DNA of 64,000 bases from Candidatus Campbellbacteria bacterium RIFOXYC2_FULL_35_25 (GCA_001774495.1 MFAE01000005.1:26583-90582), one strand, 5' to 3'. Shown: positions 25,041 through 46,594, counted from the first letter of the stretch. Numbers and translations: made by a program. Notes: generated by a model not told the origin, from the letters alone.

Positions 25041-25104
25041 CCCTCGACACAGCAAAAGAAAAAAGACGAATAAATTCGTCTTTTTTCTTTTGCTGTGTCG
25101 AGGG
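25041..25104. repeat. 64-bp perfect palindrome (30-bp arms, loop taaa) whose right arm continues into the partial tRNA-Phe 3' copy
   Basis: ccctcgacacagcaaaagaaaaaagacgaa taaa ttcgtcttttttcttttgctgtgtcgaggg. Confidence 0.85.
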
Positions 25105-25148
25105 GCGGGCTCGGACCGCCGACCCTTCGCTCTTCAGGCGAATGCTCT
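25095..25148 (-). pseudogene. partial tRNA-Phe copy (3' 54 nt: acceptor 3' strand, T arm, anticodon arm, D-stem 3' strand), att-like direct repeat of intact gene
   Basis: 54/54 identity with 25289-25342 then divergence. Confidence 0.8.
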
Positions 25149-25290
25149 CCCTCCTATTGCCTGCTCGCCCTTCGGGACTCGCTTCGGCAATTTTTTGCTT
25201 CGCAAAAACCAGATAAAAAGCTTAAACGCTTTTTATCCAACTGAGCAACGCTCAGTTGCTAGAGCATTAATAAATTTAGTTTATACAGTG

Positions 25291-25363
25291 TGTCGAGGGG
25301 CGGGCTCGGACCGCCGACCCTTCGCTCTTCAGGCGAATGCTCTACCAACTGAGCTACCTCGAC
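25291..25363 (-). tRNA. tRNA-Phe (anticodon GAA)
   Basis: GTCGAGG/CCTCGAC acceptor, D arm TAGCTCAGTTGGTAGAGC, anticodon stem TTCGC/GCGAA loop CTGAAGA, T stem GGCGG/CCGCC with unusual T-loop TCCGAGC. Confidence 0.85.
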
Positions 25364-32249: not shown

Positions 32250-32343
32250 ATTATTTATATTATTGAGATTAATAAAAATTCTAATAATAAACTAGAAATT
32301 GAATAGAGAATCATGAATTAAGAATTCTGAATCATGATTCTTT

Positions 32344-32410
32344 ATTCGTGATTCGTGATTCGTGATTCGTGATTCGTGATTCGTGATTCGTGATTCGTGA
32401 TTCGTGATTC
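32344..32410. repeat. heptanucleotide tandem repeat (ATTCGTG) x 9.5, perfect
   Basis: attcgtg units 32344-32406 plus attc; intergenic between SPFH stop (32432) and start of 31695..32249. Confidence 0.95.
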
Positions 32411-32431: not shown

Positions 32432-33208
32432 CTATTTTTTACTAACAAAATTAGAATATCCTTTTATAGCTTCCAAAACTTCTGTAGGAATCATCCAGAT
32501 GGTTGTATTTGATTGATCAGAGCTTAAATCGTTAATTGCTTGCAATGTTCTCAAATGCATAGCCCCAGGGGTAGCGGAAAGTTTTGCAGCCGCTAGAGCT
32601 AGGTTGTCAGCAGCAATTCGATCACCGTCAGCTTTAATAATAACAGCTCTCTTTTCTCTTTCAGCTTCAGCTTCTTTTGAAATAGTTCTCTTCAAGTCTT
32701 CTGGGATAATAACATCCTTTAGTTCAACCGATTCGATATCGATTCCCCAAGGATCGGTGAGGGAGTCAACTCTTTCTTTAATCTGCAAAGCTATTTCAGC
32801 TCTTTTCTGCAACAAATCATCCAAACTTCTTTCTCCCACAAAGTTTCTCATCGTTGTTTGAGCAACCTGTGAAGTAGCATAGTAGTAATCTTCTACTTCA
32901 AGAACAGCCTTAGAAGCCTCAACAATTTTATAATAAACAACGGCATTGATCTTTACCGGGATATTATCCTTTGTAATCACTTCTTGATCGGGAACATCTA
33001 CTGCTTTTGTTCTTATATCGACCTTTGTCATAGATTGAAAAATTGGAATAACAAGTCTCCATCCTGGTTGTTTTATTCCTGTAAATTTACCAAGGGTAAA
33101 CATAACCCCTCTTTGATACTGATTCACCTGCCTCAATATCAATACCAAAATTACAATAATAACTGGTATGTATGTTAACAGGTTTGGACCTCCTAAAAAT
33201 GTATTCAT
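32432..33208 (-). CDS. SPFH/band-7 (stomatin/prohibitin-like) domain protein
   Basis: 258 aa, N-terminal TM, SPFH core, coiled-coil tail; G-less CTATAGACTATAAACTAAA leader before ATG. Confidence 0.85.
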   Translation of the reverse strand: MNTFLGGPNLLTYIPVIIVILVLILRQVNQYQRGVMFTLGKFTGIKQPGWRLVIPIFQSMTKVDIRTKAVDVPDQEVITKDNIPVKINAVVYYKIVEASKAVLEVEDYYYATSQVAQTTMRNFVGERSLDDLLQKRAEIALQIKERVDSLTDPWGIDIESVELKDVIIPEDLKRTISKEAEAEREKRAVIIKADGDRIAADNLALAAAKLSATPGAMHLRTLQAINDLSSDQSNTTIWMIPTEVLEAIKGYSNFVSKK

Positions 33209-33372
33209 GGTTAATTTAGTTTATAGTCTATAGTTTTTAGTCTATAGAAAAATATAGTATTAATAATATAATTATAACACAGTCTAGTTTTTAGTTGATA
33301 GTTGATAGTTTTTAGGAAAAAGAAAAAGCCCGTCCCGGAAAAAATTTCATGAGTCTCTCAATTCCTTGCTTT

Positions 33373-33438
33373 TTTTAAAAGAAATTTTTCTGACAAAAAT
33401 GACGACCGTCATTTTTATCAGAAAAATTTCTTTTAAAA
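33373..33438. repeat. 66-bp near-perfect AT-rich palindrome (32-bp arms, 1 mismatch, centre gacg ac cgtc)
   Basis: tttaaaagaaatttttctgacaaaaatgacg / cgtcatttttatcagaaaaatttcttttaaaa. Confidence 0.85.
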
Positions 33439-33485
33439 AACCATGGTGATCTATCCTAACCAATTTAAATATTTTACGAGAAAAA

Positions 33486-33953
33486 AGCCCGTCCCGGAAA
33501 CCGGGGCGGGCTACAAAACAACAAAAAGATAGCTCGGGATCGCTGGGTGGCGGTTTGAAAATTTCATTGACCGTCGCCTTCAGGGCGGTTTTTTACGTCG
33601 CAGGCGTCTCTTTTTGGTGTTTTTCTATTTGGAAACCTCCCCATATAAACAGAGAAGCTCCACCCATAAGAGCAAAACAAATATAGAAAAAAAGCAGGGC
33701 AAAATGATGAAAGAAAAAATCATTTAACCAATTTCGATAAAAATCATTTAACAGAAGAATATTAAGATCTGAAAAAAACAATACTGATACCATCAAGAAA
33801 AAACCAATGGCCACAGAGCAATAAGCAATAGACTTCATAGCACTCCTCCTTTCTTTTTTATACTTTTTTATGAAAGACAAAAAATTCTAACCATAGACTA
33901 ACAACATAGACGAGGGTTGTCAATCATTTTGGCTTCTTTTACAATTATTTAGA
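33486..33953. repeat. 468-bp direct repeat, copy A (apparently 100% identical to 34461-34928); contains gene 33593..33880 and GC hairpin AGCCCGTCCCGGAAACCGGGGCGGGCT
   Basis: base-by-base comparison of the two stretches; identical 95-aa translations. Confidence 0.9.
33593..33880 (-). CDS. hypothetical small membrane protein (2-3 TM), copy A
   Basis: 95 aa; identical to 34568..34855. Confidence 0.5.
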   Translation of the reverse strand: MSFIKKYKKERRSAMKSIAYCSVAIGFFLMVSVLFFSDLNILLLNDFYRNWLNDFFFHHFALLFFYICFALMGGASLFIWGGFQIEKHQKETPAT

Positions 33954-34085
33954 AATTAAGAATTTAAAATTAATTTGATTTTAAAATTGGATGCGGAACG
34001 AAGGTTTGAGGTAGTTATTTGGAAAAAGAAAAAGCCCGTCCCGGATAACCGGAACGGGCTGCAAAACAACATTTGGTGTTTTTGT

Positions 34086-34292
34086 TTATAAAAAAAGTTT
34101 TTCACCAAAAGCGTTAATCCCTTTGCCGTCAGGGTAATGAACCCTTTTACATACCGGGCACGCCGGCATATCCTCAAATTGAGGATTTGAACATCACCCC
34201 CCTCCAGAGACCATCATACTTTTTGAAGGAGAATCTTGATCTATTGCCTCCCCACAGTCAGTACATGGAAATTGAAAAGTATCTTGTCCCAC
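34086..34292 (-). pseudogene. small zinc-ribbon ORF (CTDCG...CPVCK) with strong SD (AAGGAGG-6nt-GTG) interrupted by in-frame TGA at 34194-34196 next to a G6 tract
   Basis: translation MGQDTFQFPCTDCGEAIDQDSPSKSMMVSGGG*CSNPQFEDMPACPVCKRVHYPDGKGINAFGEKLFL*; upstream TTGACA promoter-like. Confidence 0.35.
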
Positions 34293-34460
34293 TCTTACCT
34301 CCTTATAATGGCTCTGGTTTTTTGTACCGGGTTAAATAATCTATCGTTAGATTAACAGATCAGATTATATTGTCAACAAAAAATTAATTTGATTTTAAAA
34401 TTGGATGCAGAACGAGGAGTTGAGGTAGTTTTTAGTTGATAGTTTTTAGGAAAAAGAAAA

Positions 34461-34928
34461 AGCCCGTCCCGGAAACCGGGGCGGGCTACAAAACAACAAA
34501 AAGATAGCTCGGGATCGCTGGGTGGCGGTTTGAAAATTTCATTGACCGTCGCCTTCAGGGCGGTTTTTTACGTCGCAGGCGTCTCTTTTTGGTGTTTTTC
34601 TATTTGGAAACCTCCCCATATAAACAGAGAAGCTCCACCCATAAGAGCAAAACAAATATAGAAAAAAAGCAGGGCAAAATGATGAAAGAAAAAATCATTT
34701 AACCAATTTCGATAAAAATCATTTAACAGAAGAATATTAAGATCTGAAAAAAACAATACTGATACCATCAAGAAAAAACCAATGGCCACAGAGCAATAAG
34801 CAATAGACTTCATAGCACTCCTCCTTTCTTTTTTATACTTTTTTATGAAAGACAAAAAATTCTAACCATAGACTAACAACATAGACGAGGGTTGTCAATC
34901 ATTTTGGCTTCTTTTACAATTATTTAGG
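34461..34928. repeat. 468-bp direct repeat, copy B
   Basis: identical to 33486-33953. Confidence 0.9.
34568..34855 (-). CDS. hypothetical small membrane protein, copy B (identical to 33593..33880)
   Basis: 95 aa identical protein. Confidence 0.5.
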   Translation of the reverse strand: MSFIKKYKKERRSAMKSIAYCSVAIGFFLMVSVLFFSDLNILLLNDFYRNWLNDFFFHHFALLFFYICFALMGGASLFIWGGFQIEKHQKETPAT

Positions 34929-35083
34929 CCGAAATACCCAGCCATAGCAATCAGCGGGAAACATGGGTACAGAACTTTTTTCAGTTTCCTAAACCGTGTC
35001 GGCCCAGGAGGATGAGTCAGCCCCCAAATTGATCCCACAAAACCGACAAGAAAAACAATAACGCATGCTGATTTAATATCCAT
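34895..35083 (-). CDS. hypothetical small protein (weak)
   Basis: 62-aa ORF whose 3' end overlaps the duplicated segment. Confidence 0.25.
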   Translation of the reverse strand: MDIKSACVIVFLVGFVGSIWGLTHPPGPTRFRKLKKVLYPCFPLIAMAGYFGLNNCKRSQND

Positions 35084-35293
35084 ACCTTCTCCTTTTTCGC
35101 CACTATGTTAAAAAGCTTCCCAAAATTCTTGTTCTATAATAACGTCTATTTTACTAATTGTCAATACTTGTATTAAGTTAATTTCAAAATTAAATGCAGA
35201 ACGAGGAGTAAGAGTAAAATTTTGTGAGACGTATTTTCAATACGGTGAACAAAATTTTGCGAATTACGACAAAGCTCTGCGCCAATTTTGGAA

Positions 35294-36388
35294 TTAAATC
35301 CTAAATTCGATGACATCCCCATCCTTCACAACATATTCCTTCCCTTCTATCCTCTTCAAACCCTTTTCTCGCGCGACGGCGTGAGAACCACAAGAAATCA
35401 AATCCTGCCAATTTATTACATCAGCTTTGATAAACTTGTCTTTAAAATCTGTGTGAATAGCTGTGCCTGCCATAGGAGCTGCCCAACCACGCTTTATTGT
35501 CCAAGCTCTAGATTCATCTTCCCCTGTTGTGAAATATGTAATCAAATCTAACAATTCATATCCTGTCCTGATTAAACCATCAATATCATCAGCAGAACCA
35601 CCGAGCTGTTGTTTAAATTCTTCTTTTTCATCAGGCGCAAAGTCTTGTAATTCATGTTCAATCTGAGCATCAACTTTTACATACTTAGCCCCAGTTTCTT
35701 CAAAAAACTTTATCAGTTGGTCATATCTTTCGTCTTCAATTTCATCCAAATTTTGCCCACCCGACTTTTTGTTCAAAATATAAAAAATTGGTTTCATTGT
35801 AAGCAAGTGAAGAGCTTTAACAATTTTTATTTCTTCTTCGTCCATCTCCACAGTTGAAGCAAACTTTCCATCGTCTAAAACTTTTTCTATTTTTTGTAAA
35901 ACTCCTTTTTCAATAATTGCATTTTTATCTTGCCTTCTTACATCCTTTTCAACATTATCCAATCTCTTGGTAACAGTTTGAAAGTCTGCCATTATTAATT
36001 CAAGATTAATAACTTCCACATCATCCATTGGATCAATTTTCCCTTCCACGTGAATAATTTTGTCGTCTTCAAAAATTCTCACCAATTCGGCGATAGCATC
36101 TACTTCTCTAATATTGGCCAAGAATTTATTTCCCAAACCTTCTCCAGAGTGAGCTCCGGCAACCAGACCAGCGATATCAACAAACTCAATTGCCGCTGGA
36201 ACCATTTTTTTTGATTTTGAAAATTCGTTTAATTCTTCTAACCTTTGGTCAGGAACAGAAACAACCCCGACTGATGGGTCGATAGTACAAAATGGGTAGT
36301 TTTCTGCTTCGACAGACTTTTTGGTCAAAGCGTTAAACAAAGTTGATTTTCCTACGTTGGGCAAGCCCACAATACCTATCGAAAGCAT
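35294..36388 (-). CDS. ychF: ribosome-binding ATPase YchF (Obg-family GTPase)
   Basis: 364 aa, G1 GLPNVGKST, coiled-coil insert, C-terminal TGS domain. Confidence 0.9.
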   Translation of the reverse strand: MLSIGIVGLPNVGKSTLFNALTKKSVEAENYPFCTIDPSVGVVSVPDQRLEELNEFSKSKKMVPAAIEFVDIAGLVAGAHSGEGLGNKFLANIREVDAIAELVRIFEDDKIIHVEGKIDPMDDVEVINLELIMADFQTVTKRLDNVEKDVRRQDKNAIIEKGVLQKIEKVLDDGKFASTVEMDEEEIKIVKALHLLTMKPIFYILNKKSGGQNLDEIEDERYDQLIKFFEETGAKYVKVDAQIEHELQDFAPDEKEEFKQQLGGSADDIDGLIRTGYELLDLITYFTTGEDESRAWTIKRGWAAPMAGTAIHTDFKDKFIKADVINWQDLISCGSHAVAREKGLKRIEGKEYVVKDGDVIEFRI

Positions 36389-45726: not shown

Positions 45727-45845
45727 AGAAAATTTTTACGAAAATTTTAGTATTAAGTAATAAGTAGTAAGTATTAAGTATAAATGAAAAAGTTAAAAGT
45801 TGAAAGTTTATAATTTCTAGCGAGGACGAAAGGGAGGTATAGTCC

Positions 45846-46100
45846 ATGAAAAAAATTGATCGTGAGGCAATTATAATTATTTTTGTTGTTCTCTTGGTAT
45901 GCAGTCTTTTTAGAAGCACGCGTACCATACACTCTCTCGAGGAGAATCTATCCTCGATCGAAACTGCTGTGATGAGAGAGTGTGACTTCTCTAATGAGGA
46001 ATGCATCACCTGCAAACCAAAAGGGATTGTCGCCGTAAAACATCATCTCGACGGAAGTAATGAATTTATTTGGGGCAAGGATAAAGTTTCTAGAATCTAG
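45846..46100 (+). CDS. hypothetical protein
   Basis: 84-aa ORF with SD GGGAGG; moderately GC-rich. Confidence 0.3.
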   Translation: MKKIDREAIIIIFVVLLVCSLFRSTRTIHSLEENLSSIETAVMRECDFSNEECITCKPKGIVAVKHHLDGSNEFIWGKDKVSRI

Positions 46101-46263
46101 GCCTCCGACGAAATTCAAACTCCTTTGGAAAGTGAGCCGATTGATACATCGGTATACTAACCAGAATACACCTAGCCTAGGGGGCCTCGGAACTTGTTTG
46201 TTCCGTGGCCTCTTTTTTTGTTTGTTAAAAAGTCACAAGCCTAGCTTGTGACTTTTTAAAGAT

Positions 46264-46289
46264 TTGTTACGTAGCATGCTACGTAACAA
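46264..46289. repeat. 26-bp perfect palindrome ttgttacgtagcatgctacgtaacaa inside a 500-bp hairpin-rich intergenic region (46100-46595)
   Basis: self-complementary; neighbours: hairpins 46230-46254, 46430-46462, 46488-46530 and GC-rich CCGTCGTTTCGCTTCGCTCC module also seen at tRNA loci. Confidence 0.8.
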
Positions 46290-46594
46290 GGTTCTGAATT
46301 GCTTCGAAATTACTCCCCGAGGCCTCACCTCTCCCGTCGTTTCGCTTCGCTCCACTTCTCCTCGAGGACTTAAAATTTTTTAGGAAAAGTTTTAAGCAAC
46401 GACGGGCCTCCGTCCGTAATTTCTCGCAAAGACGACGAAAGGCAGAGCCTTTCGTCGTCTTTTAAAAATTAATTTATTAAAAATTTTTAAACCCCCACCC
46501 CTTTCTTTTCCAAAACAAAGGTGTGGGGGTTTAAAAATTAAAAATTAAAAATTTCAGATGTTTTTTCTACTCACTACTCACTACCAACTACTCA

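What the first reader, a model, noticed from the sequence alone, without database searches (positions are those of the whole stretch)
34086..34305. SD-led zinc-ribbon ORF split by an in-frame TGA beside a G6 homopolymer
After a TTGACA-type promoter comes AAGGAGG-6nt-GTG, and the frame encodes MGQDTFQFPCTDCGEAIDQDSPSKSMMVSGGG-TGA-CSNPQFEDMPACPVCKRVHYPDGKGINAFGEKLFL. Only reading through the TGA gives a textbook four-Cys zinc ribbon (CxxC...CPxC). A +1 or -1 slip in the adjacent GGGGGG tract would instead destroy the second CxxC. Several readings are possible: a recent nonsense pseudogene, programmed readthrough or selenocysteine, or a fragment acquired from a donor that reads TGA as a sense codon. 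Reading TGA as Gly extends the GGG run to GGGG, which fits code 25 as used by Gracilibacteria/Absconditabacteria. The rest of this window clearly uses TGA as a stop.
Basis: partly seen in the sequence, partly recalled or inferred. Interest (0 to 1): 0.55.

Follow-up and report, generated by a model that had tools for sequence, protein, structure and literature searches.

The report
Orphan zinc-ribbon ORF with internal TGA
A tiny strain-specific gene in a groundwater Campbellbacteria (CPR) genome would encode a four-cysteine zinc-ribbon peptide, but a genuine in-frame TGA cuts it in half; it is most likely a nonsense-interrupted young orphan gene, though a strong RNA hairpin pair just after the TGA means programmed read-through cannot be excluded.

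Summary
On the minus strand there is AAGGAGG, 5 nt, GTG (34292), 32 codons, TGA (34196-34194, directly after G6 at 34202-34197), 35 more open codons, TAA (34088-34086), then an intrinsic terminator (34060-34033). Only the zero frame across the TGA yields CxxC...CPxC.

The TGA is not a sequencing error: the sequence is identical in eight other metagenome assemblies. The host is Candidatus Campbellbacteria RIFOXYC2_FULL_35_25, which uses the standard code (0 in-frame TGA in 12,128 codons of conserved genes).

The ORF has no homologue anywhere searched. It lies in a ~2.1 kb island of orphan small ORFs between ychF and a band-7 gene. That island is absent from a related species. Nothing supports a code-25 donor or selenocysteine. 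No frameshift rescues the second CxxC.

One oddity remains. The 48 nt after the UGA form two adjacent hairpins (-17.1 kcal/mol) built from rare codons (z = -4.1 against synonymous recoding). The second hairpin loosely fits a bacterial SECIS pattern.

Best reading (about 0.45): a nonsense-interrupted orphan gene whose full-length product arises only by basal leak. Programmed recoding is about 0.13. Interest is low to moderate.

The parts
34380..34433 (-). Roughly 50-nt upstream element shared by three neighbouring small transcription units. The other copies are at 33966-34019 and, more weakly, 35169-35222.
   Evidence: Direct-repeat family D4, 91% and 63% identity; alignment of the upstream regions.
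34371..34376 (-). -35-like hexamer TTGACA.
   Evidence: Read from the sequence. The same hexamer sits at the same place upstream of the 81-aa ORF and orf62. It was not called as a full promoter by the consensus scan.
34349..34354 (-). Weak -10-like hexamer TAATCT, 16 nt after the -35.
   Evidence: Read from the sequence. The neighbouring units have TAGTCT and TATTAT at the equivalent position. This assignment is inferred, not shown.
34298..34304 (-). Shine-Dalgarno AAGGAGG, 5 nt before the GTG start.
34197..34292 (-). N-terminal half, 32 codons (GTG ... GGA GGG GGG), holding the first CxxC (C10, C13). The G6 run is 34197-34202.
   Evidence: Codon-usage log-likelihood ratio is +12.9, where real genes give 14 +/- 5.7; 1.8% of stop-free shuffles reach it.
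34194..34196 (-). In-frame TGA. It overlaps an out-of-frame AUG (UGAUG, AUG at 34194-34192) that lies 6 nt after the SD-like GGAGG at 34205-34201.
   Evidence: identical in eight other assemblies.
34172..34184 (-). Hairpin 1 (CCUCA-AUU-UGAGG), starting 10 nt after the UGA. It sequesters an SD-like GAGGA.
   Evidence: Minimum-free-energy fold.
34149..34171 (-). Hairpin 2 (AUAUGCCGG-CGUGC-CCGGUAUGU): 9 bp, -10.5 kcal/mol, loop at +32 to +36 after the UGA. It is built from the rare codons CCG, GCG, TGC, CCG. It contains the in-frame AUG at 34169-34167 and overlaps the CPVC codons.
34089..34193 (-). C-terminal half, 35 open codons (CSNPQFEDMPACPVCKRVHYPDGKGINAFGEKLFL), holding the second knuckle CPVC.
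   Evidence: Its codon log-likelihood ratio (+4.0) is not distinguishable from stop-free shuffles.
34086..34088 (-). TAA stop of the full-length frame.
34023..34060 (-). Intrinsic terminator (12-bp stem, 9 G-C, then TTTTTCTTTTT). It belongs to a family of near-identical terminators at 33479-33523 and 34454-34498.
33209..35293 (-). Island of orphan small ORFs between ychF (35294-36388) and the band-7 gene (32432-33208). Order: orf62, the 81-aa membrane ORF, the zinc-ribbon ORF, the 81-aa ORF again.
   Evidence: The island is absent from a related species, where ychF and band-7 are 506 nt apart. No homologues of its ORFs were found in 80 ychF loci of relatives.

Best explanation
This is a compact, lineage-specific transcription unit in Candidatus Campbellbacteria bacterium RIFOXYC2_FULL_35_25: a promoter-like TTGACA, a strong SD, a GTG start, and a terminator right after the second stop. 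Its ancestral reading frame was a 68-codon C4 (CxxC...CPxC) zinc-ribbon-like peptide. A single-base change created a genuine TGA at codon 33. The possible one-step ancestors are GGA, TGT/TGC, TGG, CGA, AGA, TCA and TTA. In a host that reads TGA as stop, ribosomes mostly terminate there and release a 32-residue one-knuckle peptide. The full-length peptide would arise only through the basal near-cognate leak that UGA shows in bacteria. The gene sits in a fast-changing ~2.1 kb island of orphan small ORFs assembled by local duplication of promoter/terminator cassettes. It is best seen as a young orphan gene that is decaying, or at most expressed by leak. Shown: the anatomy, the reality of the TGA, the standard code in the host, the orphan status, and the island's lineage specificity. 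Inferred: that the full frame was ancestral, that termination dominates, and that the promoter works.
For: The TGA is identical in eight other assemblies, so it is not an error. The host uses the standard code. There are 0 in-frame TGA in 12,128 codons of Pfam-supported genes. TGA ends 50 of 407 long ORFs in related Paceibacteria loci. TGA-ending ORFs in the window are followed directly by terminator-like hairpins. The full frame looks ancestral: the chance of an open tail carrying CxxC is about 0.4%, the terminator follows the TAA rather than the TGA, and weak PHROG profile matches (E = 0.006-0.008) span residues 9-53 across both knuckles. No homologue was found in the word-indexed search of 5.8 billion proteins, the exhaustive HMMER search of 1.84 billion representatives (only spurious SRCR-repeat hits), GTDB genomes, JGI metagenomes (same strain only), viral contigs, syntenic loci of 80 relatives or PDB. 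There is no paralogue in the window. The island is missing in a related species and differs by a ~300-nt indel even among assemblies of the same strain. The two flanking 81-aa ORFs carry consecutive GenBank protein accessions, so the ORF appears unannotated. No frameshift gives a sensible product.
Against: The 48 nt right after the UGA fold into two adjacent hairpins at -17.1 kcal/mol. Synonymous recodings of the same peptide with host codon usage give -5.8 +/- 2.7 (z = -4.1, p about 3e-4). In 150 control windows from real genes the lowest z was -3.4. Hairpin 2 uses four consecutive rare codons: CCG 0.10, GCG 0.11, TGC 0.29, CCG 0.10. Only 1-1.7% of the 2,151 TGA triplets in the window have such a hairpin at that distance. 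A plain pseudogene does not predict this. With no orthologue, neither the ancestral codon nor relaxed selection can be shown. All the assemblies represent one clonal population, so fixation of the TGA says little.
Confidence: 0.45

Rival explanations
1. Programmed recoding of the UGA. The two hairpins directly 3' of the UGA would act as a recoding signal. They would either stimulate read-through by a near-cognate tRNA or serve as a SECIS for selenocysteine insertion. The 68-residue peptide would then be the intended product, and termination would give a second, short product.
For: The structure after the UGA is exceptional given the peptide and host codon usage (z = -4.1, p about 3e-4). It also stands out against dinucleotide shuffles (z = -2.9). 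Hairpin 2 (9 bp, -10.5 kcal/mol, loop CGUGC starting 32 nt after the UGA, G in the first two loop positions) passes the loose bacterial SECIS pattern as I recall it from Zhang and Gladyshev 2005. Only 1-1.7% of TGAs in the window pass it. The hairpin is made of rare codons. The N-terminal half shows no such signal (z = 0.08).
Against: There are no homologues at all, hence no Cys-for-Sec alignment and no covariation. No tRNA-Sec, sel genes or UCA-anticodon tRNA were found in the 64 kb window. No paper in the library links Sec to Patescibacteria. From general knowledge, CPR genomes are minimal, and structure-stimulated read-through is not established in bacteria apart from SECIS. The base after the stop is U; UGAU is, from memory of E. 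coli data, a comparatively efficient terminator. Genuine stops in this genome are also commonly followed by strong hairpins. The synonymous-shuffle test assumes the tail is coding, and codon statistics do not show that.
Confidence: 0.13
2. The 32-codon ORF is the whole gene and the UGA is its original stop. The following 134 nt would be a structured 3' UTR (hairpins 1 and 2, then the terminator). The open frame with CPVC in it would be coincidence.
For: Codon usage of the C-terminal half (+4.0) is no better than stop-free shuffles; 27% of shuffles reach it, as do 44% of open antisense stretches. Hairpins right after stops are normal in this genome. With about 1,000 open stretches per window, one chance CxxC/CxxC pair was indeed seen elsewhere.
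Against: The joint chance of an open tail with CxxC is about 0.4%, and about 0.01% for CPxC specifically. A single CxxC knuckle in a 32-residue peptide is not a complete metal site, and the N-terminus resembles the first knuckle of two-knuckle ribbons (Zn_ribbon_8, residues 5-18). The real terminator follows the TAA closely.
Confidence: 0.12
3. The unit makes two or three coupled products by termination and re-initiation. Ribosomes ending at the UGA would restart at the overlapping AUG (UGAUG), which lies 6 nt after the internal SD-like GGAGG. They would translate a 6-codon mini-ORF (MFKSSI), melting hairpin 1 on the way. They would stop at UGA 34176-34174 and restart 4 nt later at the in-frame AUG 34169. 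That yields a separate 27-residue peptide (MPACPVCKRV...) carrying the second knuckle.
For: GGAGG (34205-34201), 6 nt, then AUG overlapping the stop is the classic coupling geometry and resembles the gene's own start spacing, which is 5 nt. The G7-frame translation shows the mini-ORF VMFKSSI*. The SD-like GAGGA and the AUG of the 27-aa ORF are both buried in hairpins 1 and 2. That is the usual arrangement when a downstream start is opened only by upstream translation. The ORF listing reports the 27-aa ATG ORF at 34086-34169.
Against: This rests on sequence inspection alone. The GAGG-to-AUG spacing for the third ORF is only 2 nt. A zinc site assembled from two separate micro-peptides has no precedent that I know of. 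There are no homologues to show the arrangement is conserved.
Confidence: 0.1
4. It is not a functional gene in any form. It would be a by-product of the cassette duplications that built the island, possibly transcribed but with no selected protein product.
For: The ORF is an orphan in every database searched. The island is absent from a related species and unstable among assemblies. The structure prediction has low confidence (pLDDT 41.8). GenBank carries no protein for it.
Against: The start has a strong SD at proper spacing. The N-half codon usage is typical of host genes (+12.9, p = 0.018 against shuffles). The two-knuckle Cys pattern is unlikely by chance.
Confidence: 0.12
5. It is a fragment acquired from a donor that reads TGA as a sense codon: code 25 Gracilibacteria or Absconditabacteria (TGA = Gly), or a code-4 organism or phage.
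For: Reading TGA as Gly would give a GGGG run. Such organisms co-occur in aquifers (general knowledge).
Against: GC3 of both halves equals the host's. The promoter, upstream element and terminator are native repeats shared with neighbouring units. No homologue was found in 1.84 billion protein representatives, GTDB genomes, JGI metagenomes or viral contigs.
Confidence: 0.03
6. A sequencing or assembly error at the TGA or in the G6 tract.
For: Homopolymers can be miscalled on some platforms.
Against: The 225 nt are identical in ten loci from eight other assemblies made with different assemblers (MEGAHIT k141, SPAdes NODE, JGI, the ANAN16 scaffold). No change in G-tract length restores the motif.
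Confidence: 0.01

Closest known systems
Small stand-alone C4 zinc-ribbon proteins (Pfam Zn_ribbon_8 / FmdB-like, PF09723)
   Same: It is a very short protein. An N-terminal aromatic-x-aromatic-x-CxxCG motif forms the first knuckle and a later CPxC forms the second. The best Pfam hit is this family, at residues 5-18.
   Different: The score is 16.1 bits against a gathering cut-off of 34.4. The knuckles are 31 residues apart, longer than I recall as usual for the family. The linker holds a stop codon. No detectable homologue exists.
Bacterial selenoprotein genes (UGA plus a SECIS hairpin read by SelB)
   Same: There is an in-frame UGA next to a Cys, in a Cys-rich metal or redox-like motif. A stable hairpin has an apical loop containing GU about 32 nt downstream.
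   Different: There is no Cys-containing homologue and no sel genes or tRNA-Sec in the window. The host clade is not known to use Sec. The hairpin criterion is permissive.
prfB (RF2) programmed +1 frameshift site
   Same: An SD-like G-rich tract (GGAGGGGGG) lies immediately 5' of an in-frame UGA.
   Different: The +1 frame runs through the terminator without a stop and loses the second CxxC. There is no CUU-type slippery codon, and the gene is unrelated to release factors.
Nonsense-interrupted or young orphan (proto-)genes in variable genomic islands
   Same: It is lineage-restricted and sits in a locally duplicated, indel-prone region. It is unannotated and has a premature stop fixed in a clonal population.
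   Different: It retains a strong SD, a dedicated terminator and an unusually structured stretch right after the stop.

Membership tests
Zn_ribbon_8 / FmdB-like zinc ribbon (PF09723) | Profile match at or above the Pfam gathering score | tested here: not met
   16.1 bits against a cut-off of 34.4, E = 0.011, residues 5-18 only.
Zn_ribbon_8 / FmdB-like zinc ribbon (PF09723) | Two CxxC/CPxC knuckles in one polypeptide | tested here: inconclusive
   Both knuckles exist in one frame (C10/C13 and C45/C48), but a TGA separates them. The structure prediction was uninformative (pLDDT 41.8).
Bacterial selenoprotein | In-frame UGA | tested here: met
Bacterial selenoprotein | SECIS-like hairpin with its apical loop 16-37 nt after the UGA and G in the first two loop positions (criteria recalled from memory) | tested here: inconclusive
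   Hairpin 2 passes, and only 1-1.7% of the window's TGAs pass. The pattern is permissive, and Rfam gave no relevant match.
Bacterial selenoprotein | Homologues with Cys or Sec aligned to the UGA | tested here: not met
   No homologue of any kind.
Bacterial selenoprotein | selA, selB, selC (tRNA-Sec) and selD in the genome | not testable with these tools
   None in the 64 kb window.
Genetic code 25 or 4 (TGA as sense codon) | TGA used in-frame throughout conserved genes | tested here: not met
   0 TGA in 12,128 in-frame codons of 24 Pfam-supported genes. No other plausible TGA-split ORF in the window.
Genetic code 25 or 4 (TGA as sense codon) | tRNA with anticodon UCA and loss of RF2 | not testable with these tools
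   The window's tRNAs are Glu(CTC), Phe(GAA) x2, Arg(CCT) and Gly(CCC). prfB is not in the window.
prfB-type programmed +1 frameshift | The shifted frame encodes the functional continuation | tested here: not met
   The +1 frame gives DVQILNLRICRRARYV... and runs through the terminator. The -1 frame stops after 7 codons.
Independent transcription unit (sigma-70-type promoter plus intrinsic terminator) | Intrinsic terminator directly after the stop | tested here: met
   12-bp stem with 9 G-C and a T-run at 34060-34033.
Independent transcription unit (sigma-70-type promoter plus intrinsic terminator) | -35 and -10 hexamers at 16-18 nt spacing | tested here: inconclusive
   The -35 TTGACA is perfect, but the -10 is only TAATCT, and the scan did not call it. 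The layout recurs upstream of the neighbouring units.

The most novel reading that the evidence does not exclude
The UGA is deliberately recoded. The rare-codon hairpin pair 10-45 nt downstream would promote read-through, or SelB-type Sec or Cys insertion. That would make this the first programmed stop-codon recoding event, or the first selenoprotein, described in a Paceibacteria/CPR bacterium, and it would be in a lineage-specific micro-protein.
Probability: 0.12. Interest if true: 0.75.

Novelty: new member of a known kind. Interest (0 to 1): 0.27.

Why it matters
As it stands, this is mainly a well-documented case of a young, strain-specific micro-gene caught with a fixed premature stop in a CPR genome. 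It is useful as a caution that in-frame TGA plus a Cys motif does not imply an alternative code or selenocysteine. It would matter more if the hairpins proved to be a recoding signal. CPR bacteria with the standard code are not known to use programmed read-through or Sec. A cis-acting read-through stimulator in bacteria other than SECIS would be new.

Tried and rejected
Homologue searches, all empty:
- Word-indexed search of 5.8 billion proteins.
- Exhaustive HMMER on 1.84 billion representatives. The four hits are SRCR-type or other long repeat proteins that accumulate weak Cys/Gly matches.
- GTDB genomes.
- JGI metagenome contigs, same strain only.
- Viral contigs.
- tblastn against 80 ychF-syntenic loci of relatives and two further relatives.
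- PDB.
- NCBIfam.
- PHROGs, only marginal Cys-motif hits.
- Paralogue search within the window.

Exact-product look-ups of the 32-aa half and the TTG-started 95-aa ORF returned nothing.

AlphaFold without an alignment gave pLDDT 41.8, too low for a fold search.

Rfam at permissive thresholds gave only generic hairpin and miRNA-type noise.

Codon-usage scoring looked supportive for the C-terminal half against off-frame coding sequence. It turned out to be uninformative against stop-free shuffles, so I do not use it as evidence for that half.

Rejected mechanisms:
- Frameshift or transcriptional slippage in the G6 run.
- T4 gene-60-style bypass, because the gap would remove the CPVC.
- An integron-cassette reading of the repeated intergenic elements, because they are ordinary terminators plus promoter regions and no integrase is nearby.

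TGA seemed rare as a stop (1 of 34 long ORFs). This is not significant against the clade's 12% (P(at most 1) is about 0.07 by my own binomial calculation).

Full report
**Observation**

The feature lies on the minus strand. Reading 5' to 3', it runs as follows:
- AAGGAGG at 34304-34298.
- A 5-nt spacer, TAAGA.
- GTG at 34292-34290.
- 31 further sense codons ending GGA GGG GGG, with the G6 run at 34202-34197.
- TGA at 34196-34194.
- TGT and 34 further open codons.
- TAA at 34088-34086.
- 25 nt later, a 12-bp (9 G-C) hairpin with a T-run at 34060-34033.

A perfect TTGACA lies at 34376-34371. The best -10 at 16-nt spacing is only TAATCT, and the consensus scan called no promoter here. The same layout, a ~50-nt upstream element then TTGACA then N16/17 then TA(A/G)TCT or TATTAT, precedes the two neighbouring small units. 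A shared promoter type is therefore plausible but not shown.

**Is it more than chance?**

Shuffles of the 105-nt tail stay stop-free in 9.3% of cases. Of those, 4.4% contain CxxC and 0.13% contain CPxC. The joint chance of an open tail with CxxC is about 0.4%.

The window has 1,014 open stretches of at least 30 codons across all six frames. Only this ORF and one antisense junk stretch combine CxxC before the stop with CxxC in an open tail. Add the strong SD and the terminator placed after the second stop rather than the first. The 68-codon frame then looks like the ancestral unit.

**Is the TGA real?**

Exact look-ups of the neighbouring YchF and band-7 proteins, plus a metagenome scan, returned ten loci from eight other assemblies. 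They were made with MEGAHIT, SPAdes and JGI pipelines, and one is the ANAN16 Rifle scaffold. In all of them the 225-nt stretch is identical, TGA and G6 included. A sequencing error is excluded. All of these represent one near-clonal population (1 mismatch in 1.5 kb), so they carry no evolutionary information.

**Host and genetic code**

The YchF, band-7 and 81-aa proteins are the GenBank proteins OGD67459.1, OGD67455.1 and OGD67456.1/OGD67457.1 of Candidatus Campbellbacteria bacterium RIFOXYC2_FULL_35_25. The nearest species representatives in GTDB are Campbellbacteria and Paceibacteria, at 82-85% YchF identity.

The two 81-aa ORFs flanking the zinc-ribbon ORF carry consecutive protein accessions. 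The ORF therefore appears to have no annotated protein. This is an inference.

Evidence on the code:
- Twenty-four Pfam-supported genes of the window hold 12,128 in-frame codons and no TGA.
- No other credible TGA-split ORF exists in the window.
- TGA ends only 1 of 34 long ORFs here.
- TGA ends 50 of 407 long ORFs in related loci, where TAA ends 260 and TAG ends 97. The local rarity is therefore unremarkable.
- TGA-ending ORFs in the window are followed at once by terminator-type hairpins.

The host reads TGA as stop. It is not a code-25 or code-4 organism.

**Homologues**

None were found. The searches were:
- The word-indexed search of 5.8 billion proteins.
- An exhaustive HMMER pass over 1.84 billion representatives. 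The four hits are long SRCR-type or other repeat proteins and are spurious.
- GTDB genomes.
- JGI metagenomes, which returned only the same strain.
- Viral contigs.
- PDB and NCBIfam.
- tblastn against 80 syntenic loci of relatives.

Pfam gives only a sub-threshold Zn_ribbon_8 match to the first knuckle (16.1 bits against 34.4). PHROGs gives two marginal profile matches (E = 0.006-0.008) that span both knuckles. There is no paralogue in the window. A single-sequence AlphaFold model was uninformative (pLDDT 41.8). 'Textbook zinc ribbon' therefore rests on the Cys pattern alone.

**Context**

The ORF sits in a ~2.1 kb island (33209-35293) between ychF and a band-7 gene. The island holds orf62, an 81-aa membrane ORF, the zinc-ribbon ORF, and the 81-aa ORF again. 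Each unit has near-identical terminators and shares the upstream element.

In a related species (L092, about 80% nucleotide identity in the flanking genes), ychF and band-7 are 506 nt apart and none of these ORFs is present. Even among assemblies of the same strain the island differs. The window carries about 300 nt (roughly 34600-34901, the second 81-aa copy) that the eight other assemblies lack.

GC3 of the two halves (0.28 and 0.34) equals the host's 0.30. These facts point to a young, locally generated orphan gene. They argue against a recently imported fragment from a donor with another code.

**Frames**

Changing the G tract to G5/G8 or to G4/G7 has two outcomes. One is a frame that runs through the terminator without a stop. 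The other is a stop after 7 codons. Neither restores a second CxxC. Slippage, phase variation and a prfB-like +1 shift are rejected, despite the SD-like GGAGGGGGG before the UGA.

**The one unexplained feature**

The 48 nt after the UGA fold into two adjacent hairpins with a minimum free energy of -17.1 kcal/mol:
- Hairpin 1: CCUCA-AUU-UGAGG at +10 to +22.
- Hairpin 2: AUAUGCCGG-CGUGC-CCGGUAUGU at +23 to +45.

Against 3,000 synonymous recodings of the same peptide drawn from host codon usage, the expectation is -5.8 +/- 2.7 (z = -4.1, p about 3e-4). In 150 control windows from real genes, z had a mean of 0 and an SD of 1, and the lowest value was -3.4. The N-terminal half gives z = 0.08. Against dinucleotide shuffles z is -2.9.

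Hairpin 2 is built from four consecutive rare codons: CCG 0.10, GCG 0.11, TGC 0.29, CCG 0.10. Its loop has G in the first two positions and starts 32 nt after the UGA. That satisfies the permissive bacterial SECIS pattern as I recall it from Zhang and Gladyshev 2005. Only 1-1.7% of the 2,151 TGAs in the window do so.

Three cautions apply:
1. The synonymous test presumes that the tail is coding. Its codon score (+4.0) is no better than stop-free shuffles or open antisense stretches.
2. True stops in this genome are routinely followed by strong hairpins.
3. Without homologues there is no covariation test.

**A further reading from inspection**

The UGA overlaps an AUG (UGAUG) placed 6 nt after GGAGG. 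That AUG opens a 6-codon ORF (MFKSSI, visible in the G7 frame). This mini-ORF traverses hairpin 1 and stops 4 nt before the in-frame AUG at 34169, which starts a 27-aa ORF with the CPVC. Both that AUG and its SD-like GAGGA are buried in the hairpins. The geometry fits termination and re-initiation coupling, but nothing beyond the sequence supports it.

**Weighing**

| Reading | Confidence |
|---|---|
| Nonsense-interrupted young orphan gene, full-length product only by basal UGA leak | about 0.45 |
| Programmed recoding (read-through, or much less likely Sec) | about 0.13 |
| 32-aa gene with a structured 3' UTR and a coincidental CPVC | about 0.12 |
| No selected product at all | about 0.12 |
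| Coupled multi-peptide unit | about 0.10 |
| Foreign-code donor | about 0.03 |
| Sequencing error | about 0.01 |

- The nonsense-interrupted orphan gene is the most economical reading.
- Programmed recoding is kept alive only by the hairpin statistics. It is held down by the orphan status, the absence of any Sec or suppressor component in the window and the lack of any literature link between Sec and Patescibacteria.

**Comparison with known systems**

The ORF resembles small FmdB-like C4 ribbons, but it fails the family threshold. It shares with selenoprotein genes an in-frame UGA and a loosely SECIS-like hairpin. It fails the homologue criterion, and the machinery criterion could not be tested. 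It shares with prfB an SD-like tract before UGA, but it fails the frame test.

It is best filed as a new and unremarkable member of the class of interrupted orphan micro-ORFs. One feature, the rare-codon hairpin pair after the stop, is worth a cheap follow-up in proteomic and transcriptomic data from the Rifle site.

Noticed in passing
window 33482-33900 and 34457-34875 (extra segment about 34600-34901): A 975-bp-period direct duplication gives two 100%-identical copies of an 81-aa membrane ORF plus its terminator and promoter. Eight other assemblies of the same strain lack about 300 nt of it and instead join the end of orf62 to a remnant of the 81-aa ORF tail. Five clustered mismatches lie at 34908-34917. 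This is either real strain heterogeneity or a repeat-induced assembly difference.
   Followed up: partly
window 33209-35293; locus L092 5495-6000: The whole block of orphan small ORFs between ychF and band-7 is missing in a related species, where the two genes are 506 nt apart. That relative carries an rve-family integrase gene about 1.2 kb upstream of ychF.
   Followed up: partly
window 33966-34019, 34380-34433, 35169-35222: A roughly 50-nt element (AACTACCTCAA.CTCCTCGTTCTGCATCCAATTTTAAAATCAAATTAATTTT on the minus strand) sits directly upstream of the TTGACA of three neighbouring small units. It may be a shared operator or UP element.
   Followed up: partly
window 32324-32410: A heptamer tandem array, (ATTCGTG) x 12.6 at 91% match, in the spacer downstream of the band-7 gene.
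   Followed up: no
window 33371-33440: A near-perfect AT-rich palindrome with 34-nt arms, 97% complementary, 2-nt loop. It lies between the island's last terminator and the band-7 promoter region. It matches only generic miRNA-hairpin models in Rfam.
   Followed up: no
window 25095-25169 and 25290-25363: Two tRNA-Phe(GAA) genes 120 nt apart on the minus strand. ARAGORN calls both, but Rfam at gathering score reports only the second, so the first may be divergent or degenerate.
   Followed up: no
window 45736-46594: An ~850-nt stretch without a convincing ORF. It contains long perfect hairpins, for example TTGTTACGTAGCATGCTACGTAACAA near 46262-46290 and another at about 46470-46550. No Rfam family matched.
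   Followed up: partly
window, whole: Stop-codon usage of long ORFs is TAA 20, TAG 13, TGA 1. None of the Pfam-supported genes examined ends in TGA, and TAG is unusually common for a 36% GC genome. Related Paceibacteria loci show the same ranking (TAA 260, TAG 97, TGA 50).
   Followed up: partly
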